Made by a program: the position numbers and the translations under genes
Source of the DNA: Bacilli bacterium
Lineage (GTDB): Bacteria > Bacillota_I > Bacilli_A > RFN20 > CAG-826
DNA: 64,000 nucleotides
Assembly: GCA_045597865.1 (NCBI GenBank)
Contig: JAZLKX010000025.1
Span: 274,573 to 338,572, forward strand
Direction of reading: 5' to 3'
Notes under the pieces: generated by a model
Database searches by the model: none
What the model was told of the DNA's origin: nothing
The model's input: only the letters and a program-made list of their open reading frames with translations
Part shown: positions 9,905 to 26,039 of the stretch, piece after piece
How positions within the stretch are numbered: position 1 is the stretch's first letter
Layout of the letters: the number at the start of each line of letters is the position of its first letter

Positions 9905-9928
9905 TTTTAGTATTAAATTAGTAGTTTT
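9905..9928 (+). repeat. Phased direct-repeat motif, copy A (TTAGTAT-TAAA-TTAGTAG-TTTT)
   Basis: Half-sites at 9907-9913 and 9918-9924 (11-bp phase). Starts 19 nt after the xseB stop and ends 8 nt before the dxs ATG. Confidence 0.6.
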
Positions 9929-9935
9929 ATAGTAT

Positions 9936-11807: not shown

Positions 11808-11812
11808 GGAAT

Positions 11813-11836
11813 GAGGCGATTGCCTCTTTTCTTTTT
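11813..11836 (+). terminator. Rho-independent terminator after dxs
   Basis: GAGGC-GATT-GCCTC hairpin followed by TTTTCTTTTT. Confidence 0.6.
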
Positions 11837-11894
11837 ACTAACTTTGGTTAACATAATATTGCTATTCCCACTCGATTTCTATAAAATAGAAGTG

Positions 11895-13094
11895 ATGAGC
11901 AAGATTATCCTTCACATAGATTTGAACGCCTTCTTCGTTAGATGCGAAGAGCTTTTAGATCAATCACTTGAAGGTAAGCCAGTTATCATTGGTCATAGTG
12001 GACGTGGTGGCATTGTTTCAACATGCAGCTATGCTGCGAGAAAATACGGAGTCAAATCTGGAATGCCAACTTATAAGGCATTGCAACTTTGTAAGAATGC
12101 CATCATGATCTACGGGCACTTTGATCTTTACCAAAAGAAGTCAAAAGAGTTTATTAACTTTGTTAAAAGGTATTCAAACATTATCGAACAAGCTTCAATT
12201 GATGAATGCTATGTCGACATGACAAAGGTTCTTCAAAATGAGAAGAATCCATTGAACTTTGTTAAAGAAATGCAAGCAAATCTCCTTAAGGAGTCTGGTT
12301 TAAAATGTTCAATCGGAATCGCACCAACTAAGTTTTTAGCAAAGATGGGTTCTGACATGAAAAAGCCAATGGGAATAACAGTCATTCGTCGTAAGGATGT
12401 TAGAAAAATGTTAGACCCTCTTCCAATTGAAGATTTCTTTGGAATCGGTAAGAAAACATCACCAAAACTTAGAGAAATGGGCATAAACACCATAGGTGAT
12501 TTAGCAAAACTAATTAATTCAGATGACCAAGACATCAAAAGATTCTTGGGTAAATTTTACTTTGGCATTAAAGAATGGATTAATGGCTATGGTTCAGATA
12601 CAGTTGATACTGAACCTTGGGATCCAAAGCAAATTGGACACTCAACAACTTTGCCAAGAGATGCGGAAGATGCTGACGAAATTAAGATTTATCTTAAACA
12701 AATGGCAGAAGAAGTTTCGAAGGATGCAAAAGCCGAAAATAAAGTTGGAAGTTCAGTTCAATTAATTCTAAAAGATAACGAGTTTAAAGTTATCAATAGG
12801 TCAAAACGTATTAAAGATAAAACCAATGAATTCAATGTAATTTATGAGGAAGGTCTTAAACTTTTAGCAGCCAATTATGATGGTAGACCAATTCGTTTAG
12901 TGGGAATAACTTTGCAAAATCTTGTAAATAAAGATGAAATTGTTGAACAGTTATCAATATTTGATAATTATGAAGAAGTTAAAGAAGCAAATGCTGTTAG
13001 ACTTTTAATTGCAGAACTAAATCGTCAAATCAAAGGTGCAGATTTTAAAACTGCTAGTGACTACTTAAGGGAGAAGAAAAATGGAACTCGTTGA
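11895..13094 (+). CDS. dinB: DNA polymerase IV (Y-family)
   Basis: Conserved N-terminus begins at the internal ATG 11895 (MSKIILHIDLNAFFVRCEE). SIDECYVDMT motif present. The track start at 11811 would run through the dxs terminator. Confidence 0.9.
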   Translation: MSKIILHIDLNAFFVRCEELLDQSLEGKPVIIGHSGRGGIVSTCSYAARKYGVKSGMPTYKALQLCKNAIMIYGHFDLYQKKSKEFINFVKRYSNIIEQASIDECYVDMTKVLQNEKNPLNFVKEMQANLLKESGLKCSIGIAPTKFLAKMGSDMKKPMGITVIRRKDVRKMLDPLPIEDFFGIGKKTSPKLREMGINTIGDLAKLINSDDQDIKRFLGKFYFGIKEWINGYGSDTVDTEPWDPKQIGHSTTLPRDAEDADEIKIYLKQMAEEVSKDAKAENKVGSSVQLILKDNEFKVINRSKRIKDKTNEFNVIYEEGLKLLAANYDGRPIRLVGITLQNLVNKDEIVEQLSIFDNYEEVKEANAVRLLIAELNRQIKGADFKTASDYLREKKNGTR

Positions 13095-13959
13095 TGCTGT
13101 TGATTTATATTTCCAATACCTCAGAGTAGAAAAAGGTGTTTCAAATGAAACAATCAAAAATTATTACTACGATTTGAAGTTCTTTTTCGAGACTTTAGAC
13201 AAACACACAACAGATGACTTTATGCCAACAGACATCCAAGACTTTGTAAGAATCCAGTCTAAAGAAATGCTTTCGGTTCCAACGATTCTCAGAAGAATTT
13301 CTTCAACCAAAAACTTTTATCTTTTCTTGGAAAAAGAACACATAATTGACACTCAACTAAAGAAATTTGATAAACCAAAAGGCGCTAAAAAACTTCCTGT
13401 TTGTATTTCGATTGAAGAAGTCGAAGCTTTGCTTGATGCTCCAAATATCGAAAAACCAGAGGGCTTAAGAGACCGCGCAATGCTTGAAGTTATGTACTCG
13501 TCTGGCCTTCGCGTTTCAGAACTCCTTGGTTTAAAAATAAATCAAATCAATTTTGAAAAAGGAATTATCAAAATTATTGGTAAAGGGTCAAAAGAAAGAC
13601 ACGTTCCAATCGGAGATTATGCCTTGGAATACTTAAATAAGTATATCGAAGGTCCTAGACGTAAAAATCCGGGAAGAAATACTGGATTCGCATTCCTAAA
13701 TCGATACGGAATGCCACTTAGTAGACAGTATTTCTTCTTGCAGATAAAAAAGTATGCTGAGCAAGCTGGCATTAAGGAGGAAATTTCTCCTCATACTTTG
13801 CGCCATTGCTTTGCAACACACATGCTTGAGAATGGCGCAGAACTACGTGCAGTGCAAGAAATGCTTGGCCACACAAACATTGCAACCACACAAATCTACA
13901 CGAACATCTCAAGCAAGCGCATTTTGAGCGCATATGATTTGTATAGCAAACGAAAATAG
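13081..13959 (+). CDS. xerD: Tyrosine site-specific recombinase, XerD/XerC family
   Basis: 292 aa with C-terminal HTLRHCFATHMLENGAELRAVQEMLGHTNIATTQIYT (R-H-R-Y catalytic pattern). The xerD-deoB neighbourhood resembles B. subtilis ripX-drm. Confidence 0.8.
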   Translation: MELVDAVDLYFQYLRVEKGVSNETIKNYYYDLKFFFETLDKHTTDDFMPTDIQDFVRIQSKEMLSVPTILRRISSTKNFYLFLEKEHIIDTQLKKFDKPKGAKKLPVCISIEEVEALLDAPNIEKPEGLRDRAMLEVMYSSGLRVSELLGLKINQINFEKGIIKIIGKGSKERHVPIGDYALEYLNKYIEGPRRKNPGRNTGFAFLNRYGMPLSRQYFFLQIKKYAEQAGIKEEISPHTLRHCFATHMLENGAELRAVQEMLGHTNIATTQIYTNISSKRILSAYDLYSKRK

Positions 13960-13991
13960 AGTAAAATACAACTCGGAATTGGAGATAAACC

Positions 13992-15188
13992 ATGAAAAAA
14001 TTTAAAAGAATATTCGTAATTGTTGCTGACTCAGTTGGTATTGGTGAAGAACCAGATGCAGCTAAGTTTGGTGATGTTGGAACAAATACATTTGTTCACA
14101 CAGCAGAAAAATGCGGTGGACTTAATGTTCCAGTCATGAACTCACTTGGCCTTGGAGATCTCGCTGACATCAAAGGAACAAGCAAAGTTAGCCACCCACA
14201 CGCTTATTGTGCAAGACTTCGCGAAGCCTCAAACGGTAAAGACACAATGACAGGTCACTGGGAAATGATGGGTATTTATACAACAAAACCATTTGTTACA
14301 TTTACAGACACTGGTTTCCCAGATGTTCTCATTAAAGAACTCGAAGAAAAAACTGGTCACAAAGTTATTGGAAACTATGCAGCAAGTGGAACTGAGATTC
14401 TTAAAGAATTAGGTGAAGAACAAATGAGAGATAATTCCCTCATTGTCTACACATCCGCAGACAGCGTACTTCAAATCGCTGCACACGAAGAAGTTACAGG
14501 TGTACAAGAATTATACAGATGCTGTGAAATCGCTCGTGAAATCTGTTTGAGACCAGAATATTACGTTGGTAGAGTTATCGCTCGTCCATACGTTGGAAAA
14601 GACAAAGACAGCTTCAAGAGAACTCCAAATAGACATGACTTAGCAGTCTCTCCAAGCGGAATTACAACTATGGACATTCTCAAAGAGAATGGTTATATGG
14701 TTTCATGCGTTGGTAAGATCGGAGACATTTTCAACCAAGTTGGTGTTGTAAAAACTCAAAAGACAGTTTCTAACATGGATGGAATGGATAAGACAATTGA
14801 AGAAGCTAAGAATCATGACTTTGAAGGTTTATGCTTTGTCAACTTAGTTGAATTCGATTCAGAATTCGGCCACAGACGTAACGCACTCGGCTATGGCAAA
14901 GCTCTTGAAGAATTCGACGTCCGTTTAGGTGAATTACTTGATGTTGTAAAAGATAATGACTTAGTCATCGTTACAGCAGACCACGGTAATGATCCAACCC
15001 ACACAGGCACAGACCACACAAGAGAAAAAGTACCATTCCTTGCTTATAGCAAATCATTCAAAAACGGTAAATACCTTGAAGAAAGAGAATGCTTTGCAGA
15101 CATTGGTGCAACAGTCTTAGAAAACTTTGGATTAAAAAAGAGTCCAAATCAAATTGGGAAACCAATTGATGAACTCTTAAACGATTAA
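13992..15188 (+). CDS. deoB: Phosphopentomutase
   Basis: 398 aa with [17 protein letters not shown] and TADHGNDPT metal-site motifs. Confidence 0.95.
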
Positions 15189-15775
15189 TCTATTAAATCA
15201 ATTTGATGAAGGGAACGTTTAATAACGTTCTCTTTTTCTAACTTAGTTAGAAGTCTTGATAATGTTTCTCTTTGAAGATGCAAAATACCTGCAAGTTCAG
15301 AGACTGATTTAAATTCAATTTTTCCATCGTGGTTAAATAAATAGAAGCGTAATCTTTCTTCAGCGGATGAATAAGATAAAAGTTTAATGGTGGAGTTAAG
15401 CTTTTTGCTGAAGTTTGATTGAGCATTCAAATAAGAAATCATAAACTCTTTATTACTTTGTAATAGTGAGATTAAATTATTACGCTTTATTACAACAATT
15501 GTTGAATCTTTTGTCGCAATAACATCGCCTTTATAGAACGGATCATCAGAGAAAATTAAGTTATTTCCAAAAACATCATTTTTGTGAAGAACATTATAAA
15601 TTAGTTCTTGGCCTTCAAATGAAGTGGTTGAGATTTTAACTTCTCCTGAAACAACAATAGAAACTGATTCACATTTTTCATCTTCTCTATAGAGAATTTC
15701 ATTTTTCTTAAGTGTTTTAACTTCTAGAAGTTTTTTCTCATCTCTAGATAAATTTAGTAAAATATTATTTTCCAT
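15185..15775 (-). CDS. Crp/Fnr-family transcriptional regulator
   Basis: 196 aa with an N-terminal cNMP-binding-like beta-roll and C-terminal [23 protein letters not shown]. Its stop overlaps the deoB stop (TTAA). Confidence 0.8.
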
Positions 15776-15783
15776 ACAAATCC

Positions 15784-15797
15784 GTGATTTAAATCAC
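15784..15797. promoter_or_regulatory. CRP-type palindrome GTGATTTAAATCAC (GTGA-N6-TCAC)
   Basis: Perfect 14-bp palindrome in the divergent gap between the crp-like gene and the ABC lipoprotein gene, 8 nt upstream of the crp-like ATG. Confidence 0.5.
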
Positions 15798-15850
15798 ATA
15801 CTTATTATCGAATATTTTATATTATATGTCCACCAGAATTGGTAAAGATT

Positions 15851-16774
15851 ATGAAAAAGACATGGTTATTATTACTTGCATCAATAACACTTACAGGATG
15901 TTCTTCAATTGAAGAAAGTTCAAATTTAAGAATTGTTTCTCCAACTGGAGCACCTGCAGTAGCTTTTTACAATTACTCAACAAGTGATAATTTTCAAACC
16001 AATTCCGATCCATCAAATATTATTCCAATGATGCTTAACGAAACTGTTGATGTTGCAGTTTTACCAACAAATGCAGGAATCCAAGCAATTGTTGGAAAGA
16101 ACGTAAATTATAAGATTGCTGCAACAATTACCTTTGGTAATATATTTATTGGAGCAACAGGAAATGATGAAGATGGCGTTATGGACGCAGATGATTACAT
16201 CGTTTCGTTCCAACAAGGCGCTGTTCCAGATAAAATCTTCCATTACGTTTACGGAAACACTTATGACAATGCTTTGCATTACGTTTCTAACGGCCAAGAA
16301 GCCGCGAAATGTTTGAAGACGGGTAAAAACCTTGCCGAAGATGGAAAAGCGGTGGATTACGTTGTTTTAGCTGAGCCAGCTCTAACTACAGTAATTTCAT
16401 CAACTCCAGGAAGAACTGTTTATGCAAATCTTCAAGAGCTTTACAAAGTAAAAAGTGGAAATTTGCAAATTTTCCAAGCCTCATTATTTGTAAACAATAA
16501 GTTAGAAAGAAATGTAGTTGATAAATTTTTAGAAGACCTTGAAAAAGATATAAATGCTGGAATAACAAATCCAGAAATCATTCAACAAGGATTAGCAGCA
16601 AACTCTGCAGCCGAAGCTTTATACGGAATTAAACCTGAGCAAGCAAAGGCTGTAACAGCAAATAATAATGGAATGGGTTTAGGTTTTGCTAAAGCAAAGG
16701 AAAATAAAGAAGCAATAGATTTATTCTTATCATTGTTCGGAATAGGAGCAACAAATGAAGAAATTTATTACTAA
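15851..16774 (+). CDS. ABC-transporter substrate-binding lipoprotein (NitT/TauT or NMT1-like type, substrate unknown)
   Basis: Signal peptide plus lipobox (LLLASITLTG-C) from ATG 15851. Overlaps a NitT/TauT-like permease gene by 20 nt. Confidence 0.6.
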   Translation: MKKTWLLLLASITLTGCSSIEESSNLRIVSPTGAPAVAFYNYSTSDNFQTNSDPSNIIPMMLNETVDVAVLPTNAGIQAIVGKNVNYKIAATITFGNIFIGATGNDEDGVMDADDYIVSFQQGAVPDKIFHYVYGNTYDNALHYVSNGQEAAKCLKTGKNLAEDGKAVDYVVLAEPALTTVISSTPGRTVYANLQELYKVKSGNLQIFQASLFVNNKLERNVVDKFLEDLEKDINAGITNPEIIQQGLAANSAAEALYGIKPEQAKAVTANNNGMGLGFAKAKENKEAIDLFLSLFGIGATNEEIYY

Positions 16775-17543
16775 CAAAGCAGTTTTATACATTCTTGGAT
16801 TCTTATTCCTTGTAGGACTTTGGTTCATTGTTTCAGCATGTATCGATAAGAACTCAATGATTTTTCCTGACCCAATTACAACATTTGGAAGGATGTTTCA
16901 ACTCCTTGGAGTAGGCGACACTTATCGTTATTTAGGGTTCTCAATCTTAAGACTTTTGATTGGTTTCGTTATTTCATTTGTTGTTGCATTCCTTTTAGGA
17001 ATGTTAGTTAACAATAATGAACATTTATATAATTTCTTTACGCCTTTAATGACATTCTTTAAGGCTGCGCCAACGGCAACATTTGTCTTTTTGTTTATCA
17101 TTCTTATAGGCGCAAAGAACGCTCCAATATTTGTTGTCTTTACTGTAACAATGCCAATCCTTTATGAATCGATTGTTGGAGCATTTAGAAACACTGATAA
17201 AGCTGTTTTAGCTGCAGCCCAAATTGATGGAGCAAACAAATTTAAAACAATGATTAAAGTTCAAATACCTTTAGGTATTCCTCTAATTTCTGTTGGTGTT
17301 GCATCAACATTTGCAATGGCATTTAAGATTGAAATCATGGCAGAAATTATTACAGGATTTACAAATGGTGGTCTTGGATCAATGATCCATAACTCACAAG
17401 TTGTAAACCCAACAGACCTTACAGACATGTTTGCATACAGCTTGATGGCCATTATTTTGGTTCTATTAATCACGATTTTAGCTTCATTTTTAAAGAAGAA
17501 AAACATGCCAAGAAAGCTTCACAGACGTGAGTATAGTGCATAA
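16755..17543 (+). CDS. ABC transporter permease (binding-protein-dependent, NitT/TauT-like)
   Basis: 262 aa with about 6 hydrophobic helices and an EAA-like loop (AAAQIDGANKFKTMIKVQIPL). Confidence 0.8.
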   Translation: MKKFITNKAVLYILGFLFLVGLWFIVSACIDKNSMIFPDPITTFGRMFQLLGVGDTYRYLGFSILRLLIGFVISFVVAFLLGMLVNNNEHLYNFFTPLMTFFKAAPTATFVFLFIILIGAKNAPIFVVFTVTMPILYESIVGAFRNTDKAVLAAAQIDGANKFKTMIKVQIPLGIPLISVGVASTFAMAFKIEIMAEIITGFTNGGLGSMIHNSQVVNPTDLTDMFAYSLMAIILVLLITILASFLKKKNMPRKLHRREYSA

Positions 17544-17544
17544 T

Positions 17545-17568
17545 ATTTAGTAGATATTTAGTAGTTTT
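17545..17568 (+). repeat. Phased direct-repeat motif, copy B (TTAGTAG-ATAT-TTAGTAG-TTTT)
   Basis: Half-sites at 17547-17553 and 17558-17564. Starts 3 nt after the permease stop. 23-nt identity with copy C. Confidence 0.7.
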
Positions 17569-17577
17569 GATTTGTGG

Positions 17578-17607
17578 GAAACTCACGATTTTGTGGGTTT
17601 TCTTTTT
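17578..17607 (+). terminator. Rho-independent terminator of the ABC operon
   Basis: GAAACTCAC / GATTTT / GTGGGTTTTC (bulge plus one G-U pair) followed by TTTTT. Confidence 0.5.
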
Positions 17608-17635
17608 ATTTAAATTGAGAAGTTTATAGATTTTG

Positions 17636-17665
17636 AGAAAATAAAAAGTCCGAATTAATCGAACT
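17636..17665 (-). terminator. Rho-independent terminator of the yqeG-yqeH-nadD operon
   Basis: The minus-strand RNA forms AGTTCGA-TTAAT-TCGGACT (one G-U pair) followed by UUUUUAUUUU. Confidence 0.5.
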
Positions 17666-17678
17666 TTTCTATATATTT

Positions 17679-17706
17679 GGTTAACATAATAGCCATTATG
17701 CGAAGT
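17679..17706 (-). other. dif: Candidate dif site (Xer recombination site), 11+6+11 bp
   Basis: Minus strand reads ACTTCGCATAA-TGGCTA-TTATGTTAACC. Matches E. coli dif GGTGCGCATAA-TGTATA-TTATGTTAAAT at 21/28 and B. subtilis dif ACTTCCTAGAA-TATATA-TTATGTAAACT at 20/28. Lies exactly in the convergent strand-switch gap. Confidence 0.6.
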
Positions 17707-17734
17707 TATCTATATTTTCGGCTTTCCACAAAAC

Positions 17735-18829
17735 TTACTTAAGATACTGAGCAAAACATTCATCAGTTAATTTATTTGTAATATCTTTGTTATGTGAGAG
17801 TAAATATTTTTTGTTATCTTCTAAGGTTGTTAAGAATCCAATTTTCCAGTTTTTCATACAGGCATCAATAAGCCAAGTTGAATCAAATTCTCTGGTTGGC
17901 TCAATTTTATCGCATGCGTATACGACCATTCCAAGCGCGGACATGTTCGCTTTGCCTGTGCAATGGAACTTAATTGCGTCCAAGATTTCTGGATCATTAA
18001 TTCCAAAATCTCTATGAGCAAGGAATTCACCAATAAATTGGTGATACGCAAAAGGTGGCAAATCCAAATAATCTGGATAATGTTCCTTCATTAATGAAAT
18101 CATGTCTTCACCATCGTTTTTGTATGTTTTTCCAAGGTCATGGAACAAAGCTGCATAAAAATATTTTTCAATTGGTTCAAGATTATTAACTTTTGCAACC
18201 TTATAGGTTAAGTTAGCAACCTCAATTGAATGATTTAATCTCTTCTCAGGAAGATATTTAGCAAGTTTCTTTACGTAGTAAAGACGATTGCGCTCAATGT
18301 AATCTAAAACGTCAAATGGAAGATCAATCGATTTCATCTCGCGGATTGAAGATGAACTAACTTCACCGCTTTCATAAAATTCCAAGTCCACCATTTCATA
18401 TTCTTCAATAACTTTGTTATTGAGTTCAATGCCTGGACGGTTTACAAAGCAAATCTTGGCGAGTTTGCTTAATTCTTTAGCGTCTTTCCAATCACCAAAT
18501 TTATTAACTTGATCAGCACCAATTAAGAAATAAAGGGTGTCATTCGGGTGAATACTGATTAAATATTTGACTGTGTCAATTGAGTAATTGACTTCGTCTT
18601 TGGAATTTAATTCATATTCACAGATTTCATAGTTAAAACTTGCATCTTTTAATGCAATTTTTAACATTTCTAATCTTTGATTAGAGGTTTCTTCTGGTGA
18701 TTTCCATCTTGGGGATTTTGCTGGAACAAAAATAAGAGAAGCATTTAGCTTCTTTGAAGCTGCTTCACTTATTCTTAAATGACCGTTATGGATTGGATCA
18801 AAAGTTCCACCAAAAATTACAAGATTCAT
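17735..18829 (-). CDS. nadD: Fusion protein: nicotinate-nucleotide adenylyltransferase (NadD) plus YqeK HD-domain hydrolase
   Basis: 364 aa. N-terminus has GGTFDPIHNGH (NadD). C-terminal half has HSIEVANL...FHDLGK...CDK (YqeK-type HD). Confidence 0.9.
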   Translation of the reverse strand: MNLVIFGGTFDPIHNGHLRISEAASKKLNASLIFVPAKSPRWKSPEETSNQRLEMLKIALKDASFNYEICEYELNSKDEVNYSIDTVKYLISIHPNDTLYFLIGADQVNKFGDWKDAKELSKLAKICFVNRPGIELNNKVIEEYEMVDLEFYESGEVSSSSIREMKSIDLPFDVLDYIERNRLYYVKKLAKYLPEKRLNHSIEVANLTYKVAKVNNLEPIEKYFYAALFHDLGKTYKNDGEDMISLMKEHYPDYLDLPPFAYHQFIGEFLAHRDFGINDPEILDAIKFHCTGKANMSALGMVVYACDKIEPTREFDSTWLIDACMKNWKIGFLTTLEDNKKYLLSHNKDITNKLTDECFAQYLK

Positions 18830-18831
18830 AA

Positions 18832-19980
18832 TTAATCGTTTTTGACTTTTGGTCTAGATGTATAAATTGCGACACCTTTTGGAACGTAGATACGTAATTT
18901 TTGGTTTGTTGAGTTAATTGTAACCCATCCTAAACCTGCAAATCCGATATCTCTTGGGATTGGTTTCTTATTTTGGAATGTAATATCAAAGATTTCCATA
19001 TCTTTAGTAGACTTAATTCTATTAAGAGATGGATTTAATTGACCTCTTGAGTTCAAAGAGATGAATTTCTTCTCTACATCAGTGATGTGAGACTTACGTA
19101 ATTGTACATTATCGTGGAAATAGCATGTAAATGTGGCTCTATCGCCTTCTAATACTTCGATGATGCCTAATCCACCAATGAATAAAGATTGATGCTCAGA
19201 AATGGACATTTCACGAGCTTCAACTGGTTTAGTAAGATAAATTGATTTCAAAGTCTTTGCGTCAAGACCAAATAAAATTGAGTTGGTAATTGAAATACCT
19301 GGAGTTTCATACATTGATGAACGATTGTTTAAAGGAATTTCCATTACTTTAAGATTTGTATTTTTATATTCATGAGTCATGATATTTCCGTTTGAAAGAT
19401 TTGAATAAATCTTTAAGAATGCGGAAATAAGAGCAGTTTTACCTGAATCGGATTGACCAATAATGAAGACATCTTTGCCATTCTTTAATTCGAAAATACG
19501 AGTTAAAGTTTCTTGGATTGAATCATCATCTTGTTTAGTTGTGATCATTACGTCTTCAGCTTTAATCTTTAAGCCTGCGACTCTAAATCTATGTGCAACG
19601 TATTCGGAAGTGTCATAAAGACTTGTTCCTTCTGGAAGAAGGTCAAACTTAGTACCAACAACTAAAATATTAGCATCACTTATAAGTTCAGTAAGTTCTT
19701 TGGAGAATGAGGTTTCGAATGAGAACAAGTTTACTACGTAAACAATTAAACAACCTTTTTCTTTAGCTTGTTTAATTACTTCGATGAATTCTTCATCGAT
19801 GTATGGTTCATTAGAAACTGATGAAAAACGTTCTGCTTCAAAACATCTATTGCAGAACAAAAAGTTCTGAGTAGGATTTTCTAAAACTTCTTTGTTAACG
19901 TAGCCTTCTTTAGAAGGATCATCACATTGAAGTGTTGCACCACAGCTGTAGCACTTTCTAATTTTCTTAATTTGTTCCAT
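18832..19980 (-). CDS. yqeH: Ribosome biogenesis GTPase YqeH (circularly permuted)
   Basis: 382 aa with N-terminal Zn-ribbon CYSCG...CNRCF and permuted G motifs (VGTKFDLL before GQSDSGKT). Confidence 0.9.
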   Translation of the reverse strand: MEQIKKIRKCYSCGATLQCDDPSKEGYVNKEVLENPTQNFLFCNRCFEAERFSSVSNEPYIDEEFIEVIKQAKEKGCLIVYVVNLFSFETSFSKELTELISDANILVVGTKFDLLPEGTSLYDTSEYVAHRFRVAGLKIKAEDVMITTKQDDDSIQETLTRIFELKNGKDVFIIGQSDSGKTALISAFLKIYSNLSNGNIMTHEYKNTNLKVMEIPLNNRSSMYETPGISITNSILFGLDAKTLKSIYLTKPVEAREMSISEHQSLFIGGLGIIEVLEGDRATFTCYFHDNVQLRKSHITDVEKKFISLNSRGQLNPSLNRIKSTKDMEIFDITFQNKKPIPRDIGFAGLGWVTINSTNQKLRIYVPKGVAIYTSRPKVKND

Positions 19981-20500
19981 TGATTTCTCTCCAATCTTTA
20001 AGCAAATGCTTTTTATTTAGTTTTCTTCTTAACGGATTATCGAATAAACGATTGAATCTTGTTGTTGGCTGATCTTCTTCCACTAATTTCTCAGTCAACA
20101 CACTTCTAATTCCTGCTCCATTAGCACAGCTAATGTCAGTGACAATTTGATCACCAATTAAGATAACCTCATGTCTGTAGATTTTTAATCCTTTAAGCTT
20201 TCTAAGTAATTTCTTAGAAAAAGGTTTTGCAAGCTTTGACATAAATCTAACGCCAAGAGCTCTAGCATATTTTGTGACCCTTTTTCCGGTGTTGTTTGAT
20301 GTGATAATTAACTCGATTCCTTCCATTAATAAATCCTCTTTGAGATCTATTACTCTTTTTGAAGGTGTTGCAGTCTTGTAAGAATCAAGCGTATTATCAA
20401 GGTCAACCAAGATGAATTTTACGCCTAAATTTTTATAAAACGAAACATCGATTTCAAAAATCGATTGAGCATGTGCGAAAGGAATCAAGCGTTTCCACAT
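19967..20500 (-). CDS. yqeG: YqeG-family HAD phosphatase
   Basis: VDLDNTL (DxDxT) and GDQIVTD motifs. ATG at 20498-20500 preferred over the track's TTG at 20506. Confidence 0.8.
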   Translation of the reverse strand: MWKRLIPFAHAQSIFEIDVSFYKNLGVKFILVDLDNTLDSYKTATPSKRVIDLKEDLLMEGIELIITSNNTGKRVTKYARALGVRFMSKLAKPFSKKLLRKLKGLKIYRHEVILIGDQIVTDISCANGAGIRSVLTEKLVEEDQPTTRFNRLFDNPLRRKLNKKHLLKDWREINGTN

Positions 20501-20507
20501 AGTCAAA

Positions 20508-20513
20508 ATTATA
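20508..20513 (-). promoter_or_regulatory. Putative -10 box (TATAAT) 7 nt upstream of the yqeG ATG
   Basis: Minus strand reads TATAAT-tttgact-ATG with no SD. Confidence 0.4.
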
Positions 20514-20568
20514 CACTATTTTTAGAAAAATAATAGTTTTCTAACAAGTAATATAAATCGCGTATATG

Positions 20569-20592
20569 AAAAAAGCGCCCGATTTGAGCGCT
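20569..20592 (-). terminator. Rho-independent terminator after parC
   Basis: Minus-strand AGCGCTC-AAATC-GGGCGCT followed by UUUUUU. The plus strand would have a C-A mismatch. Confidence 0.65.
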
Positions 20593-20610
20593 TTTTTGAT
20601 GAAATTTTAA

Positions 20611-23238
20611 CTAAGCTTCATCATCGTCATCGAAGATGGAGATTTGGGTGTAACCATTTACTGGTTCATCCTCTTCTTCCTTCGCAGAAGGAACTTGTCC
20701 GACAACTTCCTCTTCTTTTACCTTCTCTTCTTCTGGAATAATTCTAGCGTGAGATTCGGTATTTGCGAGGATTCTATCATGGCCTTCAATAAAGGCAATT
20801 TCGAGTCTATTTTTCTTACCAATATTTACGGATTCATGGCAATAGTAATCCATTGGAGTTAAATGATAATCATTAACTTCAATGTCTTGGATTGCTTTCA
20901 TATTTGTTAAGAAATGGAGCAAATTCTTTTCAATTGAAGTATCAAGTTTGAATGCATAGACAAGTTTATGCTCATCAGATTTGAATGTTTTGAAGACCTG
21001 ACTTGGCTTGCCTAAACGGTTCACAAAATTGGTCTTATTTGGATCATAAATTCTGATACAAGCTTTATCGGTAATTAAACAAATTTTTCCTTCAACCTTA
21101 TCCTTAGGATAAGCAACGATATTAACAATCTCTGCTGAACCAAGTTTTGAAATGCCTTTTACACCACCGCTTCTCATGCCTGCTGCAGGAAGTTCATTTT
21201 CATTGTAGAATGTTGCATTTCCGTCACTTGTGAAAATCATTAAATTGCTGTCTCCATCAGTGAAAGCTACATCTGCAAGTTCATCATCAGAAAGTAATTT
21301 CATACAAATGAGTGGTTTTGAATAACGAACGACAGAGAAATCCTGTAACGATAAACGTTTAATTTGACCACGTTTTGAAATCAATACGAAGAATAAATCT
21401 TCTCTAAATTTTTCAATTACGTATGCACGCACAATTTTTTCATTAGGATTTAAGTTAATTAAGTAGTTAATGTGACTACCTTCTTCTTTCCATTTGCATG
21501 ATTTAACTTCATAAACTGGAATATAGAGGAAGTTTCCTAAATTTGTAAAACAAATTAGGAAGTCAGTAGTCATTGCGTTACCACTATAAACACAAACATC
21601 GCCATCTTTCATACCAGGAAGAGGATTATCACCACTTGATTTGTATGATTTGATTGATGATTGTTTGATGTATCCGTCACGAGTAACTGCGAGTACAACT
21701 TCTTCTTTTGCAATGAGGTCACGAACATCAATTTGTTGGTTGCCATCTTTCTCAATAATTTGAGTTTTTCTTTCGTGGCCATAAGCGTTAGAAATCTTTC
21801 TCAAATCAGAGACCAAAAGTCTATTAAGTTTGTTTCTATCTTCAAGGATTCCGTTTAAGAATTCGATGTTAGCTTCTAAGTCTCTCTTTTCGTTCTCTAA
21901 TATAGTAATATCAGTGTTAGACAACTTATAAAGTTGTAACATAACGATAGCTTCACTTTGAGCATCATTAAATCCGAACTTATTTTGGATGTTAATTTTA
22001 GCATCTTGTTTATCTTTTGAAGCACGAATTGTATCAACAACTTGATCCAAAATTGAGATAGCTTTTATTAAGCCGTTTACGATGTCCAAACGTGATTTTG
22101 ATTTGTTCAAATCGTGGGTTGAACGACGTGTAATAACATCGACTTGGTGATCAATGTAGCAATCAACAAAATCAAGTAAGTTCATTGTCTTTGGTGTGCC
22201 ATTTACAATGGCCACCATATTTGCAGAATATGATGCTTTAAGACCTGATTTTGTCATCAAATATTTGTAGATAACATCAATTTTTGCTTCTTTTTTAACT
22301 TCAATTACGATTCTAATGCCGTTTCTATCAGATTCATCACGAACTTCTGCAATACCTGGTAAGACATTATTATGTCTTAACATATCAATTTCGTGGACTA
22401 AGTCAATCTTAACTGCTTTAAATGGAATTTCTGTAACAATAATTGCTTTTTCTTTTGGTGTATCAACAATTTCAGCTTTAGCTGCAATCTCAATTCTTCC
22501 ACGTCCTTGAGTGTACATTTCAGTAAGTCCGTTTGAAGAATAGATAATTCCACCACCTGGGAAATCAGGACCTTTGATAAATTGCATCAAATCTAAAGGT
22601 TCAACTCTTTGGTGATTGATACGATAAATAATTGCATCAATAACCTCTTTGAGGTTATGTGTTGGAATATCAGTTGCCATACCAACAGCAATACCTTCGG
22701 TACCATTAACGAGTAAGTTAGGGAATCTTGATGGTAAAACTACTGGTTCAAAGTCCTTATCATCGAATGTTAAAGCCATATCAACTGTGTCTTTATCGAT
22801 GTCACGAACCATTTCTTCTGCAATTTGTGAAAGTCTTGATTCCGTATAACGATAAGCAGCTGGGCCATCACCATCTATAGAACCATTATTTCCCTGAAAG
22901 GAAATAAGAGGATTGTTATTTTTCCAATCTTGAGACATTCTAACGAGTGCTTCGTAGATTGAGGAGTCACCATGAGGGTGATAATCACCCATAACTTTAC
23001 CAACTGTATGTGCACATTTTACTGTTGGACGTGAGAAAATATTGCCAGCTTTATACATGGCAAAAATGATACGTCTTTGAACTGGTTTTAATCCGTCACG
23101 AGCATCTGGAATTGCACGATCTTGAATGACATATTTTGCGTAAGTTGCAAAGCGGTCACCCATGATTTCTTCAAGAGTTTCGCTATGAATATTTTCGACG
23201 ATTTCTTCTTCAACAATTTGATTAGATTTTCTTGCCAT
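20611..23238 (-). CDS. parC: DNA topoisomerase IV subunit A
   Basis: 875 aa with [14 protein letters not shown] (the Q is typical of Gram-positive ParC/GrlA). No GyrA-box seen. The plsY-parE-parC neighbourhood matches Bacillus and Streptococcus. Acidic C-terminal tail. Confidence 0.85.
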
Positions 23239-23239
23239 A

Positions 23240-25183
23240 TTACTTCACCTCGTCTATAAATGAATCGACCTCGTTGAAGTTGATATTTTCTTCAATCCAA
23301 CTACGTCTTTGTGATGGGTCATTACCCATAAGGGTAATAAGTCTTTGTTCAGCGAGTACTGAGTCTTCAATTGTAACCTTCAAAAGTTGTCTTGTTTTTG
23401 GGTCCATTGTGGACTCTTTTAATTGGTCATCATTCATCTCGCCGAGACCCTTATATCTATTAACTCTTGGGGTTCCGCCAAGCTCTTTTTTAGCTTCTGC
23501 AAGGCCTTCATCATCCCAAGCATATTTGTAAATTTCTTTGCCCTTAACTTCTCTACTTGCACGGTATAAAGGAGGAAGCGCAACAAACACTTTTCCTTTG
23601 AGAATTAATGGTCTCATAAAGTTGTAGAAAAATGTAATAAGTAAGGTTTGAATATGTGCTCCATCTGTATCAGCATCTGTCATAAAAATGATCTTTCCAT
23701 AATGTGAGTTATCTGGATTACAATTCTCCAAAACACCACATCCAATGGTGTTTATGAGTGTTGCACATTCTTCATTTTTAAGAACTTTATCTAAACCTAA
23801 GCCAAAAGTGTTAAGTGGTTTACCACGAAGTGGTAAGATTGCTTGATGCATTCTATCACGTGACTTTTTGGCTGTTCCACCAGCAGAATCGCCTTCAACA
23901 ATGAAAAGTTCGTTTTTATCATAATCTTTGCTTGCTGCTGGGGTTAATTTATCAGACAAAACAATGTCTTGTTTTACTGTTTTTTTACTACGTGCTTCAT
24001 CTCTAGCTTTTCTAGCTGCAACACGAGCAGTCATGGAATCTTGACATTTCTTGATCAAATTGACTGCAAACTCTTTATGTTCAGCAAGATAATAACTAAA
24101 GTTATTATAAATAAAGTTAGAAATGATTGGTAAAGCTTCTGGAGTACCTAATTTTTGCTTAGTTTGTCCTTCATATTCGAGCTTTTCTTCAGGTATTTTT
24201 AATGAAATAATTGCAGTTAAACCTTCACGAATGTCATTACCTTCAAGTTTTTGCTTATTTCTAAGCAATCCATTTTCTTCAGCATAATCATTAACTGCTT
24301 TTGTTAAACCTTGACGGAATCCTTGTTCATGGGTTCCACCATCTCTGGTTCTAACATTGTTTGCATATGAGTAAATATTTTCGGAATAATCTTCATAAGC
24401 ATATTGCATTGCTATATCTATAGATATAGAATCGTCGATTCCTTCGAATGCAACGATCTCACCGAGAACCTTTTTGTTTGTCTCAAGTGAACCTATATAC
24501 TCCTTAATACCTTCGTTATAGCAAAACTCAACTTTTTCTCCTGTTCTTTCGTCAGAGAGTACGAATTTTACACCTTTTAAAAGGAAGGCGCTTTCTTGAA
24601 TATGGTTTGCAATAATGTCGTATTTGAAATCAACAGTTGAGAAGATTCTTGGATCAGGTTTGAAACGGACAAGTGTGCCCTTTTTCTTGGTATTACCAAG
24701 AACCTCGATTGGGGTAACAAGTTTTCCACCATCTTCAAAACGGATGTGATGAATTTTTCCACCTTTGAAAACAGTGACATCGCAATATTCAGACAAGGCA
24801 TTGGTGACCGCAGAACCAACCCCGTGTAAGCCAGCACTTGATGTGTAAGCCTTATTTGAAAACTTACCACCTGAGTGTAATGTTGTGAAGATTAATTGGA
24901 CTGCTGGCATGCCAGTCTGTTGATGTATATCAACAGGAATTCCTCTTCCTTCGTCTTCAACACCTAAAGAACCATCTTTGAAAATGGTGATTTTTATTGT
25001 ATTTCCGTATCCACTTAAAGCCTCGTCAACAGCGTTATCAACGATTTCCCAAACAAGGTGATGGACACCTGTTAAGTTAGTAGAACCGATGTACATTGCA
25101 GGACGTTTTCTGACGCCAGCAAGGCCTTCTAAAAGGTCAATATCTTTTGCGGAATAGTCTGATTTTGCGATATTATTTGCCAT
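23240..25183 (-). CDS. parE: DNA topoisomerase IV subunit B
   Basis: GHKL ATPase (VDNAVDEA, GLHGVG) and Toprim (EGDSAGG, DADTDGAHI) motifs. ATG 25183 (MANNIAKSDY) preferred over the upstream TTG. Confidence 0.85.
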   Translation of the reverse strand: MANNIAKSDYSAKDIDLLEGLAGVRKRPAMYIGSTNLTGVHHLVWEIVDNAVDEALSGYGNTIKITIFKDGSLGVEDEGRGIPVDIHQQTGMPAVQLIFTTLHSGGKFSNKAYTSSAGLHGVGSAVTNALSEYCDVTVFKGGKIHHIRFEDGGKLVTPIEVLGNTKKKGTLVRFKPDPRIFSTVDFKYDIIANHIQESAFLLKGVKFVLSDERTGEKVEFCYNEGIKEYIGSLETNKKVLGEIVAFEGIDDSISIDIAMQYAYEDYSENIYSYANNVRTRDGGTHEQGFRQGLTKAVNDYAEENGLLRNKQKLEGNDIREGLTAIISLKIPEEKLEYEGQTKQKLGTPEALPIISNFIYNNFSYYLAEHKEFAVNLIKKCQDSMTARVAARKARDEARSKKTVKQDIVLSDKLTPAASKDYDKNELFIVEGDSAGGTAKKSRDRMHQAILPLRGKPLNTFGLGLDKVLKNEECATLINTIGCGVLENCNPDNSHYGKIIFMTDADTDGAHIQTLLITFFYNFMRPLILKGKVFVALPPLYRASREVKGKEIYKYAWDDEGLAEAKKELGGTPRVNRYKGLGEMNDDQLKESTMDPKTRQLLKVTIEDSVLAEQRLITLMGNDPSQRRSWIEENINFNEVDSFIDEVK

Positions 25184-25217
25184 TTTTCTTATTACCTTTC
25201 TCAATTTCTAAAAATTG

Positions 25218-25226
25218 ATTATAACA
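25218..25226 (-). promoter_or_regulatory. Putative extended -10 (TGTTATAAT) for parE-parC
   Basis: Minus strand reads ttTGtTATAATcaattttt, about 35 nt upstream of the parE ATG. Confidence 0.45.
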
Positions 25227-25235
25227 AAATAAAGG

Positions 25236-25264
25236 TTGAAAATATAAGCACTTTTTTCTATCAT
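25236..25264 (+). promoter_or_regulatory. Putative plsY promoter (TTGAAA-17 nt-TATCAT)
   Basis: TTGAAA at 25236-25241 and TATCAT at 25259-25264. SD GGAGG lies before ATG 25290. Confidence 0.5.
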
Positions 25265-25289
25265 AATTTAGGATTTTGGAGGATTTAAA

Positions 25290-26039
25290 ATGGATATTAT
25301 TTTATATAATATAATCGCAATTTTGTTGTCATTAATTTTTGGATATTTTTTCGGTTCAATACCTACTGGAGTCATACTTTGTAGACTCTTTTATGGTAAA
25401 GATCCACGCAATTTTGGGTCAAAAAACTCTGGTGGAACCAATGTTGGACGAGTTTTTGGCATGAAAATGGGTGCAGCAACCATAATTTTAGATGCTTTTA
25501 AGACCATTTTTCCGATGATTATTGTGTATATTATCCTTAAATTTGCTAATTTGAACGACATTTTCTTAAACAATTTTGGCGAAAATCTCTTCCATAATGG
25601 TTTAACAATGTTAATTGTTGCTCCTTTAGGAGCAACCTTTGGACACTGCTGGCCAATATTTGCTCAATTTAAAGGCGGAAAAGCTGTCGCAAGTTTTGCT
25701 GGTTTTGCCATTGCTACTTGCTGGTTAACATTTGGACTTAGCTTAATTGCCTTCCTAATTACCCTCAAAATTTCAAAACACGTTTCTCTTTCTTCAATAA
25801 TCGGATCGTTAGTTGCCATGCTTGGTGCCTGGATCTTGTTTATCCTTTCAAATTTTGTCCCAAGTTTTAACACCAATTTTGCTTTTTGGGGATTCGGACA
25901 AGAGCCATTTTGGGTTGTTGCAAGTCTAGAGTTTGCAATCGCCTCAACCTTAATTGCCGTCGTTCTTGTAATTAGACACATTTCGAATATAAAAAGACTC
26001 GCGTCGCACACCGAATCAAAAATTAAGTGGATGAAGTAA
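25290..26039 (+). CDS. plsY: Glycerol-3-phosphate acyltransferase PlsY (acyl-phosphate dependent)
   Basis: 249 aa polytopic membrane protein with GSKNSGGTNVGR and FKGGKAVA motifs. Somewhat longer than typical PlsY at the C-terminus. Confidence 0.9.
   Translation: MDIILYNIIAILLSLIFGYFFGSIPTGVILCRLFYGKDPRNFGSKNSGGTNVGRVFGMKMGAATIILDAFKTIFPMIIVYIILKFANLNDIFLNNFGENLFHNGLTMLIVAPLGATFGHCWPIFAQFKGGKAVASFAGFAIATCWLTFGLSLIAFLITLKISKHVSLSSIIGSLVAMLGAWILFILSNFVPSFNTNFAFWGFGQEPFWVVASLEFAIASTLIAVVLVIRHISNIKRLASHTESKIKWMK

What the first reader, a model, noticed from the sequence alone, without database searches (positions are those of the whole stretch)
17544..17734. Gene-strand switch plus a dif-like 28-mer: probable replication terminus
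Left of this gap, 15 of 16 CDS are on the + strand. Right of it, 42 of 46 are on the - strand (exceptions plsY, ispG, ispH, rpsT). Transcription therefore converges on this 191-bp gap, as expected where two replichores meet in a low-GC Gram-positive genome. Inside the gap, the minus strand at 17679-17706 reads ACTTCGCATAA-TGGCTA-TTATGTTAACC. This has the 11-6-11 architecture of dif. It matches E. coli dif (GGTGCGCATAATGTATATTATGTTAAAT) at 21/28 positions and B. subtilis dif (ACTTCCTAGAATATATATTATGTAAACT) at 20/28, with the XerD arm TTATGTTAA almost intact. An XerC/D-family recombinase gene lies 3.7 kb away (13081-13959). Both flanking gene blocks are syntenic to B. subtilis regions that are not at its terminus, so the junction may also mark a rearrangement symmetric about ter.
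Basis: partly seen in the sequence, partly recalled or inferred. Interest (0 to 1): 0.6.

Follow-up and report, generated by a model that had tools for sequence, protein, structure and literature searches.

The report
Terminus dif site with DnaA-box module
The 28-base sequence is very probably a real chromosome-dimer-resolution (dif) site at the replication terminus of an uncultured gut bacterium, which is ordinary; what is not ordinary is that across this group of bacteria dif has, at a fixed distance, an origin-like DnaA-box/TAG-repeat module that I could not find described.

Summary
ACTTCGCATAA-TGGCTA-TTATGTTAACC lies at 17706..17679 (- strand) in the 191-bp gap between convergent gene blocks. 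It matches E. coli dif at 21/28 and B. subtilis dif at 20/28.

The dif/terminus reading is well supported:
- Relatives down to about 35% NadD identity keep both arms invariant, while the central 6 bp and the rest of the spacer diverge.
- GC skew flips from + to - here. It also flips at the same motif in 51 of 60 other species' loci.
- A XerD orthologue with all catalytic residues lies 3.7 kb away.
- A second, conserved XerD-arm half-site sits before the xerD operon.

About half of the low-GC relatives carry a DnaA box (TTATCCACA/TTTTCCACA) starting 114 nt (±11n) from the first base of dif. It is followed by two to four TTAGTAG heptamers with an 11-bp period, always in one orientation. A blind metagenome search for that module alone returned dif at the fixed distance in 47 of 54 hits. 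In the window itself the box is degenerate (TTTCCCACA) but the heptamers are exact. A second module lies at 26053-26112.

The module has the orientation of origin unwinding elements, yet it sits at the terminus. Its function is unresolved.

The parts
17679..17706 (-). dif 28-mer ACTTCGCATAA-TGGCTA-TTATGTTAACC. XerC-type arm 17706-17696, central 6 bp 17695-17690, XerD-type arm 17689-17679.
   Evidence: Arms are invariant and the centre varies in L001-L008 and in 120 species.
17643..17669 (-). Terminator-like hairpin of the yqeG-yqeH-nadD operon. dif lies between the nadD stop codon and this hairpin.
   Evidence: In relatives a short CG-containing hairpin recurs at about +40..+60 from dif. A metatranscriptome contig of the operon ends at 17679.
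17573..17581 (-). DnaA-box-like 9-mer TTTCCCACA (2 mismatches to TTATCCACA), 125 nt from the first base of dif. Relatives carry TTATCCACA/TTTTCCACA, mostly at 113-115.
17547..17568 (+). TTAGTAG-ATAT-TTAGTAG-TTTT: two TAG-TAG heptamers with an 11-bp period, 4 nt after the permease stop codon. In dif orientation they lie at offsets 142 and 153.
17576..17603 (+). Terminator-like hairpin for the permease operon. It overlaps the DnaA-box-like 9-mer.
13081..13959 (+). xerD (ripX-type) tyrosine recombinase, 292 aa. It follows dinB and precedes deoB.
   Evidence: The catalytic R, K, H-x-x-R, H and Y residues all align with E. coli XerD.
11843..11858 (-). Second XerD-arm half-site TATTATGTTAACCAAA, a 16-mer identical to the one in dif, with no XerC-type arm. 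It lies between the dxs terminator and the probable dinB-xerD promoter.
   Evidence: It is conserved at +5.84..+5.88 kb from dif in L001, L002, L004, L005 and L007, and at about +4.2 kb in L080, L083, L085 and L092.
26053..26112 (+). Second module (B), in the same orientation as the first: TTAGTAG-N4-TTAGTAG, then TGTGAATTA (26081-26089) and TGTGGAAAC (26104-26112). It lies between plsY and the UPF0154 gene, with no dif beside it.
   Evidence: The same module has intact boxes in another species, L147/L157.
1..64000 (.). Replichore junction. GC skew is positive up to about 18 kb and negative beyond. Gene orientation converges on 17544-17734.

Best explanation
SHOWN. The 28-mer at 17679-17706 has the 11-6-11 dif architecture. 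It lies at the point where GC skew and gene orientation of the two replichores converge. It is conserved as dif sites are: both arms fixed, central 6 bp free. A XerD orthologue is encoded 3.7 kb away. Its presumed binding arm (TTATGTTAACC) recurs as a conserved isolated half-site in front of the xerD operon.

INFERRED. XerD binds the right arm, and a XerC-type partner (not in the window) binds the different left arm. After replication the pair resolves chromosome dimers here, presumably activated by an FtsK/SpoIIIE-type translocase as in E. coli and B. subtilis. The isolated half-site would act like a B. subtilis XDS site, as an operator of xerD, or both.

SHOWN. In this clade dif is one end of a larger conserved element:
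- dif;
- an 86-bp (±11n) spacer of free sequence but fixed length;
- one to three DnaA boxes in one orientation;
- two to four TTAGTAG heptamers on an 11-bp lattice.

INFERRED (my preferred reading, about 0.35). DnaA, possibly with a heptamer-binding factor, assembles about eight helical turns from the XerD arm. Together with Xer-dif it forms one higher-order complex that modulates recombination or fork fusion at dif. The window's own species keeps exact heptamers but only a degenerate box.
For: dif:
- Sequence and scores.
- Alignment of the gap with relatives at 91, 75 and 69% NadD identity shows two conserved islands, dif and the heptamers, in otherwise diverged DNA.
- The arms are identical, and the centres are TGGCTA, TGTCTA, TCACTA, TCTCTA or CCGATA.
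- 120 species each carry one copy per stretch.
- Left and right 4-kb GC skew average +0.083 and -0.072. Left exceeds right in 51 of 60 loci, p = 3e-8.

Terminus:
- Skew profile.
- Wrong-strand genes keep the replichore sign or are shifted toward it. Coding-strand GC3 skew is -0.41 for head-on genes and -0.25 for co-oriented genes on the right side. Intergenic skew is +0.20 on the left and -0.07 on the right.

Xer:
-.
- Half-sites. About 25 exact 11-mers occur against about 3 expected, by my rough composition estimate, mostly in dif orientation.

Composite element:
- Exact CTACTAA occurs 74 times at +130..+169 in 88 loci, against about 0.5 expected and almost none elsewhere within ±300 nt.
- DnaA boxes occur 26 times at +100..+119, against 0.3 expected.
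- Everything sits on an 11-bp lattice.
- The module-only metagenome scan gave 54 hits. In 47, dif starts 103-117 nt before the box, mostly 113-116.
- Module orientation is 5'-(TAG)n..TGTGGATAA-3', as in the T. maritima DUE (oligonucleotide sequences in PMC10316083). That paper places the B. subtilis TAG trios beside its DnaA boxes; their relative orientation is my inference.
- Metatranscriptome contigs stop on both sides of 17530-17678.
Against: - No whole genome was available, so uniqueness of the site and the global skew extremum are untested.
- There is no second Xer gene and no ftsK/spoIIIE in the 64 kb.
- The GAAGAAG polarity toward the site (38:5) is confounded by coding strand.

Against the higher-order-complex reading:
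- Module B has no dif next to it, so the module can work on its own.
- Heptamer pairs without boxes also occur after the stop codons of xseB, lepA and (in relatives) parC.
- The window's own box has two mismatches, and L002, L004 and L120 have none.
- Each heptamer holds only two TAG trios, and an 11-nt period is out of register with a 3-nt DnaA filament. T. maritima DnaA needs three contiguous TAGs.
Confidence: 0.85

Rival explanations
1. The module is a polar replication-fork barrier (a DnaA-based Ter). The fork from the left replichore unwinds the TAG heptamers first. They lie on its lagging-strand template. DnaA held on the still-duplex box captures them and forms a locked, open-complex-like structure that stops the helicase. 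The opposite fork removes the box first and passes. This would fix termination right beside dif.
For: The module sits at the skew switch. Modules A and B share one orientation, as a primary and a backup barrier for one fork direction would. The box/TAG orientation is the one DnaA uses to hold single-stranded DNA at origins.
Against: No oppositely oriented module was seen in the 17 kb to the left, so there is no two-sided trap. A barrier does not need base-pair-exact, helically phased spacing to dif. DnaA has no known fork-arrest role. No RTP or Tus homologue turned up among the window ORFs scanned.
Confidence: 0.25
2. The module is a DnaA homeostasis site (like datA, DARS or the B. subtilis DnaA-box clusters). 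Placed at the terminus, it would tie DnaA titration or reactivation to the completion of replication.
For: DnaA boxes cluster around dif. There are one to three downstream. In L018, L035, L043, L080, L083, L085, L121 and L125 there are further boxes at -54 (inverted), -39 and -30. There are two modules within 8.4 kb.
Against: This does not explain the fixed distance to dif, nor why the heptamers survive where the box has decayed.
Confidence: 0.15
3. The heptamers are operon-end or insulator signals bound by an unknown factor. Their nearness to dif reflects only that two operons end there.
For: Outside dif, heptamer pairs always lie on the sense strand just after a stop codon: xseB, plsY, lepA, and parC in relatives. 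No RNA contig covers the module.
Against: The distance to dif is fixed to ±2 nt modulo 11 whichever gene flanks the module. In L005/L007 a 171-aa ORF on the other strand intervenes. The blind module search recovers dif at 113-116 nt.
Confidence: 0.15
4. The system uses a single recombinase (XerD alone, as XerS or XerH do) rather than a XerC/XerD pair.
For: Only one Xer gene is present in the 64 kb. It stays linked to dif within a few kb in 47 of 120 species' 8-kb stretches. This recalls the xerS-difSL and xerH-difH linkage (PMC1914069, PMC3325230; abstracts only).
Against: The two arms differ in their outer 6 nt (ACTTCG against the complement GGTTAA). The isolated half-sites contain only the right arm. 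The protein is an ordinary 292-aa XerD. Most Firmicutes keep codV elsewhere (my own knowledge).
Confidence: 0.2
5. The locus is an origin (oriC-like), not the terminus, because it carries DnaA boxes and TAG trios.
For: DnaA box plus TAG-repeat architecture, in the orientation found at origins.
Against: Genes and skew converge on the site rather than diverge from it. An origin here would put about 90% of genes head-on, including dnaK, sigA-dnaG and ribosomal protein genes. There is no dnaA or dnaN in 64 kb. The TAGs are not contiguous.
Confidence: 0.03
6. The match is a chance AT-rich palindrome, or a remnant attachment site of an Xer-exploiting mobile element.
For: Identity counts alone are not extreme. 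dif-like sites do occur on 17 viral contigs.
Against: The site is conserved across very distant relatives at a syntenic position. There is one copy per stretch and no flanking duplicate or cargo genes. The viral hits are mostly high-GC and unrelated.
Confidence: 0.02

Closest known systems
Chromosomal dif / XerC-XerD (E. coli) and dif / CodV-RipX (B. subtilis), activated by FtsK/SpoIIIE
   Same: 28 bp in an 11-6-11 layout with inner palindrome CATAA..TTATG. XerD arm TTATGTTAA. Position at the GC-skew switch. One copy per stretch. A XerD orthologue followed by deoB, which as I recall is the B. subtilis ripX-drm order.
   Different: The left arm, ACTTCGCATAA, mixes the Firmicute outer part (ACTTC) with the proteobacterial inner part (GCATAA). 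The partner recombinase and the translocase were not observed. dif is transcribed as the 3' UTR of the nadD operon. It is tied to a fixed-distance DnaA-box/heptamer module.
XerD-binding sites (XDS) of the B. subtilis terminus, where XerD unloads SMC (Karaboja et al. 2021, as cited in PMC11894783 and PMC12322038)
   Same: Isolated, conserved XerD-arm half-sites without a XerC arm lie near dif, mostly in dif orientation (window 11843-11858).
   Different: Here the best-conserved one abuts the promoter-like region of the dinB-xerD operon, so autoregulation is an equally good reading. SMC unloading was not tested. I could not read the primary paper.
Plasmid Xer sites cer and psi with accessory sequences (ArgR/PepA, ArcA/PepA)
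   Same: A Xer core site plus protein-binding sequences roughly 100 bp away whose geometry matters. The ArcA box is also a direct repeat with an 11-bp period. This rests on my own knowledge and was not tested here.
   Different: Those sites are plasmid-borne, lie on the XerC side and bind other proteins. Here the element is chromosomal, lies on the XerD side, and has DnaA-box and TAG-heptamer motifs. The module also exists without dif (module B).
Origin unwinding modules: DnaA box plus DnaA-trio / TAG repeats (B. subtilis BUS, T. maritima eTrio; PMC8287927, PMC6669920, PMC10316083)
   Same: A DnaA box with TAG-TAG units on the strand 5' of TGTGGATAA. The same relative orientation and comparable spacing (8-19 nt).
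   Different: It lies at the terminus, not the origin. Each unit has only two TAGs, repeated every 11 nt rather than contiguous. No dnaA or dnaN is nearby. No AT-rich DUE was evident beyond the heptamers.
Replication fork traps (Tus-Ter, RTP-Ter)
   Same: Asymmetric protein-binding repeats next to the terminus. The half-site TACTAA resembles part of the B. subtilis Ter core as I recall it; this is a lead only.
   Different: No Tus or RTP homologue was seen. Modules A and B point the same way instead of facing each other.

Membership tests
dif (Xer chromosome dimer resolution site) | 28 bp: two 11-bp arms around a 6-bp centre, with partial inverted symmetry | tested here: met
   ACTTCGCATAA-TGGCTA-TTATGTTAACC, with inner CATAA/TTATG.
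dif (Xer chromosome dimer resolution site) | Similarity to experimentally defined dif sites beyond chance | tested here: met
   21/28 to E. coli dif and 20/28 to B. subtilis dif. Both on one 28-mer occurred in 0 of 300 random windows. Each score alone is weaker, 3/300 and 56/300 (reference sequences from PMC3025954).
dif (Xer chromosome dimer resolution site) | Arms conserved and central region free among related genomes | tested here: met
dif (Xer chromosome dimer resolution site) | [quoted passage not shown] | tested here: met
   Met within the window and in aggregate in 60 other species. The whole-genome extremum was not available.
dif (Xer chromosome dimer resolution site) | Single occurrence per chromosome | tested here: inconclusive
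   Unique in the 64 kb. One match per stretch in 120 species. No complete genome of the lineage could be scanned.
dif (Xer chromosome dimer resolution site) | Cognate XerC and XerD recombinases encoded | tested here: inconclusive
   A XerD orthologue is present with all catalytic residues. No second Xer gene lies in the window. The rest of the genome was not seen.
dif (Xer chromosome dimer resolution site) | Recombination at the site, dependent on FtsK/SpoIIIE and polar guide motifs | not testable with these tools
   No ftsK in the window. The GAAGAAG bias of 38:5 toward the site is confounded by coding strand.
oriC basal unwinding system (DnaA box + DnaA-trios) | DnaA box within about 16 bp of at least three contiguous NAN/TAG trios | tested here: not met
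   Boxes are present in relatives, and the window's box has 2 mismatches. The TAGs come in pairs every 11 nt, not three or more in a row.
oriC basal unwinding system (DnaA box + DnaA-trios) | Location at the origin: divergent genes, - to + skew, usually next to dnaA/dnaN | tested here: not met
   Genes converge, skew goes from + to -, and there is no dnaA or dnaN.
cer/psi-type Xer site with accessory sequences | Accessory protein-binding DNA at a fixed distance from the core, required for recombination | tested here: inconclusive
   The fixed, phased distance is met. The requirement, the proteins and the topology were not tested. The side (XerD arm) and the motifs differ.
RTP/Tus fork trap | Terminator protein gene, and oppositely oriented Ter sites bracketing the terminus | tested here: not met
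   No such protein family appears among the window ORFs scanned. The two modules have the same orientation. The 171-aa ORF next to the module in L005/L007 is a membrane protein.
XDS (XerD-only binding sites near ter) | Conserved XerD arm with a degenerate XerC arm, clustered around dif | tested here: met
   Window 11843-11858 and its syntenic copies. Exact half-sites are about 8-fold enriched by a rough composition estimate. Binding and SMC unloading were not tested.

The most novel reading that the evidence does not exclude
In this clade of uncultured gut Bacilli, dif is one half of a conserved terminus element of about 180 bp. The other half is an origin-type DnaA-box/TAG-repeat module, set at a helically phased, fixed distance from the XerD arm. 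The replication initiator DnaA would then have a dedicated job at the terminus. It could act as an accessory factor of Xer recombination. Or it could be the core of a new kind of polar fork barrier, with an open-complex-like lock formed when the fork exposes the TAG strand.
Probability: 0.35. Interest if true: 0.85.

Novelty: new variant of a known kind. Interest (0 to 1): 0.6.

Why it matters
A dif site at a terminus is expected and adds only one more lineage to a long list. The linked module is different. Apart from the rare Tus and RTP systems, no cis element is known to organise termination, and DnaA is not known to act there. A module built like an origin unwinding element sits a fixed 86 bp from dif in dozens of species whose proteins are only 35-50% identical. 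That suggests a physical link between the initiator, or a DnaA-box-binding factor, and dimer resolution or fork fusion. The idea can be tested directly with purified proteins and spacer mutants, even though the organisms are uncultured. The conserved XerD half-site before the xerD operon also extends the XerD-only-site idea beyond Bacillus.

Tried and rejected
- Exact-protein look-up of NadD-YqeK found nothing. Relatives were reached through homologues instead.
- Rfam found nothing at gathering score in the window. The gap gave only sub-threshold noise.
- KOPS/SRS tests: GGGNAGGG and GAGAAGGG are too rare. The GAAGAAG bias and all top-skewed k-mers are explained by coding strand.
- Heptamers as FtsK guide motifs: rejected. 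There are only 12 in 64 kb against 6.6 expected, with no polarity.
- Heptamers as low-affinity DnaA boxes on the 11-bp lattice: rejected. The conserved bases fall in the wrong register (worked through by eye).
- The 171-aa ORF beside the module in L005/L007 as an RTP-like protein: rejected. It is a hydrophobic membrane protein.
- Origin reading: rejected (see rivals).
- Viral-contig scan for the dif pattern: 17 hits, mostly high-GC, none with the module or window genes.
- Marker-frequency analysis: not feasible. Only Logan contig depths were available, and the expected gradient over 64 kb is about 2%.
- A literature search for dif-adjacent DnaA boxes found nothing relevant.
- The Ter consensus was not printed in the review I read, and PMC7897262 is not held. 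The Ter and XDS comparisons therefore rest partly on memory.
Full report
**1. Observation**

The - strand at 17706..17679 reads ACTTCGCATAA-TGGCTA-TTATGTTAACC. It matches E. coli dif at 21/28 and B. subtilis dif at 20/28. The reference sequences are as printed in PMC3025954. It is the best match in the window to four dif references.

Identity counts alone are only moderately unusual. In 300 composition-matched random windows, 3 reached 21/28 to E. coli dif and 56 reached 20/28 to B. subtilis dif. None did both on one 28-mer.

The 191-bp gap lies between an ABC permease ORF (+, ends 17543) and a nadD-yqeK fusion ORF (-, ends 17735). The four exceptions on the right are plsY, ispG, ispH and rpsT.

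**2. Organism and gene map**

GC content is about 34%. The closest public sequences are uncultured gut 'Bacilli/Firmicutes bacterium' MAGs. The species representative JAKSVH010000001.1 (horse faeces, locus L010) has XerD 100% and NadD 97% identical to the window's.

- Left block: relA, hisS, aspS, tkt, nusB, xseA/B, dxs, dinB, xerD, deoB, a Crp-family gene (-), a 311-aa ORF, and the permease.
- Right block: nadD-yqeK, yqeH, yqeG, parC, parE, plsY (+), efp, ispG (+), nfo, a DEAD helicase, ispH (+), trmK, sigA, dnaG, glyS, recO, era, ybeY, dnaJ/K, grpE, hrcA, lepA and others.

**3. Is it dif?**

The strongest evidence is comparative.
- In contigs whose NadD is 91, 75, 69, 63 and 61% identical, the same junction is present.
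- The gap aligns only in two islands.
- The 28-mer keeps both arms exactly: ACTTCG[C/T]ATAA and TTATGTTAACC.
- The central hexamer varies: TGGCTA, TGTCTA, TCACTA, TCTCTA or CCGATA.

Each stretch has one copy. Most come from uncultured Bacilli, and some from distant phyla.

XerD. The 292-aa protein at 13081-13959 scores best as XerD in NCBIfam (316.8 bits, just under the 329.6 cutoff). Its best PDB match is E. coli XerD (1a0p, E 5e-54). The R, K, H-x-x-R, H and Y catalytic residues are all aligned. It is followed by deoB, which I recall is the B. subtilis ripX-drm order. No other Xer gene and no ftsK are in the window.

A second copy of the XerD arm is present. TATTATGTTAACCAAA at 11843-11858 (- strand) has no XerC-type arm. 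It lies between the dxs terminator and a promoter-like TTGCTA-N17-TATAAAAT in front of dinB-xerD (the promoter was read by eye). It is conserved at the same place in L001, L002, L004, L005 and L007, with unrelated flanks. A similar site lies about 4.2 kb from dif in L080, L083, L085 and L092.

Exact half-sites total about 25 in 1.05 Mb of dif-neighbourhood DNA. My rough composition estimate expects about 3. They are mostly in dif orientation. This resembles the XerD-only XDS sites of the B. subtilis terminus (cited in PMC11894783 and PMC12322038). Here the site could equally be an operator of xerD.

**4. Is it the terminus?**

GC skew on the + strand is positive from 1 to about 18 kb and negative from about 20 to 64 kb. 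Gene orientation flips at the same place, so I separated the two effects.
- Third-position skew is dominated by codon usage (C-ending over G-ending) on whichever strand codes.
- Head-on genes on the right have a more negative coding-strand GC3 skew (-0.41) than co-oriented ones (-0.25).
- The one head-on gene on the left keeps a positive whole-gene skew.
- Intergenic DNA has skew +0.20 on the left and -0.07 on the right.

A replication-linked component therefore changes sign here.

Across 60 other species' loci with at least 1.5 kb on both sides of the motif, mean skew is +0.083 before it and -0.072 after it. The left flank exceeds the right in 51 of 60 (binomial p = 3e-8).

The whole-genome skew extremum, uniqueness of the site and marker frequency could not be tested.

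**5. What else is in the gap**

The second conserved island is TTAGTAGATATTTAGTAGTTTT (17547-17568, + strand). It consists of two TTAGTAG heptamers 11 bp apart.

Read in dif orientation:
- Exact CTACTAA heptamers occur 74 times at +130..+169 in 88 low-GC loci. About 0.5 are expected, and almost none occur elsewhere within ±300 nt.
- 57 of 125 loci carry at least one.
- Between dif and the heptamers, most of these loci have one to three DnaA boxes (TTATCCACA or TTTTCCACA) in one orientation. With at most 1 mismatch, 26 fall at +100..+119, against 0.3 expected.
- Box starts cluster at 113-115, with minor classes at about 92, 102 and 125.
- Heptamer starts cluster at about 132, 143 and 154.
- The box-to-heptamer spacer is 8, 19 or 30 nt.

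The whole array therefore sits on an 11-bp lattice anchored to dif. The 86-bp spacer has no conserved sequence apart from a short terminator-like hairpin.

The species carrying this array have NadD only 33-54% identical to the window's. Inertia cannot explain the fixed length.

Eight species also have boxes upstream of dif at -54 (inverted), -39 and -30.

Reciprocal test. I scanned the metagenome collection for the module alone (TTAGTAG-N4-TTAGTAG-N6..33-TGTGGAWAA). This gave 54 hits and 45 distinct module sequences.
- In 47, a dif-like 28-mer (at most 5 substitutions) starts 103-117 nt before the box, mostly 113-116. These include diverged dif types ending ..TTATGTAAACT or ..AAGT that my first pattern could not have found.
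- One more has a more diverged dif at the right place.
- One is cut by the contig end.
- Two are the plsY-side module of another species.
- Three look unrelated.

In the window's own subclade the box is decayed. The window and L001 have TTTCCCACA at offset 125 (17573-17581). L002, L004 and L120 have none. The heptamers are exact in all of them.

**6. Other copies**

A second full module (B) lies at 26053-26112, between plsY and the UPF0154 gene. It has the same orientation, box-like TGTGAATTA and TGTGGAAAC, and no dif. In another species this module has intact boxes (L147/L157).

Heptamer pairs without boxes lie at three kinds of place:
- between xseB and dxs, which has no Shine-Dalgarno sequence (9907-9928);
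- after lepA, just upstream of a good promoter (53901-53922);
- in relatives, after parC.

They are always on the sense strand just after a stop codon. The heptamer itself is not frequent (12 in 64 kb against 6.6 expected) and shows no polarity.

In a horse-gut metatranscriptome, assembled contigs cover 15857-17529 and 17679-20490. None covers 17530-17678. So dif appears to be transcribed as the 3' end of the nadD operon, while the module is not detectably transcribed. This is weak evidence, because it rests on contigs rather than reads.

**7. Interpretation**

The dif/Xer reading needs no special pleading, and I hold it at about 0.85-0.9.

The module has the make-up and relative orientation of origin unwinding elements. 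[quoted passage not shown]

It is not an origin. Genes and skew converge on it, no dnaA or dnaN is near, and the TAGs come in pairs every 11 nt rather than as a run.

The feature that most needs explaining is the fixed, helically phased distance to dif. That points to one higher-order complex. My ranking:
- accessory or regulatory complex for Xer-dif, about 0.35;
- polar fork barrier using a DnaA open-complex-like lock, about 0.25;
- DnaA titration or reactivation site timed by termination, about 0.15;
- operon-end or insulator element that merely abuts dif, about 0.15.

Each has evidence against it (see the rival explanations). The existence of module B without dif shows that the module can act alone.

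**8.

The synteny of both blocks with non-terminal B. subtilis regions is plausible from the gene lists. However, the junction itself is conserved throughout a deep clade. Nothing suggests a recent or symmetric rearrangement.

**9. Limits**

- No complete genome, no binding data and no read-level coverage were available.
- DnaA binding is inferred from sequence only.
- The comparisons with cer/psi, the Ter core sequence and the B. subtilis gene order rest on my own knowledge.

Noticed in passing
window 26053-26112: Second heptamer/DnaA-box-like module between plsY and the UPF0154 gene, in the same orientation as the dif-linked one. It is conserved in L001-L007 and, with intact boxes, in L147/L157. 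About 89 nt from its box lies ATAGCGCATAA (reverse complement of 26198-26208). This looks like a lone XerC-type arm and is identical to the left arm of the diverged dif in L173. It may be a relic or a coincidence.
   Followed up: partly
window 11843-11858: Isolated XerD-arm half-site TATTATGTTAACCAAA, conserved in relatives. It abuts the -35 of a promoter-like sequence before dinB-xerD. It could be an XDS-like site, an autoregulatory operator, or both.
   Followed up: partly
window 9907-9937: Three heptamer-like units (TTAGTAT, TTAGTAG, ATAGTAT) run straight into the dxs start codon. dxs has no Shine-Dalgarno sequence, whereas the neighbouring xseB has GGAGG. The arrangement is conserved in L001-L007.
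   Followed up: no
window 53901-53922: A heptamer pair directly after the lepA stop codon and 2 nt upstream of a good promoter (TTTACA-N17-TAAAAT). The promoter serves a 475-aa ORF with no Pfam match (52421-53848).
   Followed up: no
window 17735-18829: nadD and yqeK are fused into one 364-aa ORF (NCBIfam PRK07152-type). The relatives L005/L007 additionally keep rsfS and a 166-171-aa membrane-protein ORF between this gene and dif.
   Followed up: partly
whole window: Third codon positions strongly prefer C over G on the coding strand (GC3 skew about -0.25 to -0.4), whatever the replichore. Whole-sequence GC skew is therefore a small difference between opposing coding and replication effects.
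   Followed up: yes
window 50907-51064: Upstream of hrcA lie two CIRCE-like inverted repeats (TTAGCACT..AGTGCCAA). There is also a hairpin, TTATCCACTATGTGGATAT, whose arms are DnaA-box-like. It is probably just the hemW terminator.
   Followed up: no
window 11811-11895: The longest dinB ORF (427 aa) probably starts too early. The family match begins at residue 29, and relatives have 399-402 aa. That places the real start near 11895 and makes the half-site intergenic.
   Followed up: partly
L183-L199 (viral contigs): 17 viral contigs, mostly high-GC, carry the same dif-type core CTTCGYATAA-N6-TTATGTTAAC. They are presumably Xer-exploiting elements or proviruses with host flank from other phyla.
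   Followed up: partly
L018, L035, L043, L080, L083, L085, L121, L125 (-54 to -30 from dif): Additional DnaA boxes at fixed positions on the XerC-arm side of dif: one inverted at -54 and two tandem at -39 and -30. In these species dif sits inside a DnaA-box cluster.
   Followed up: partly
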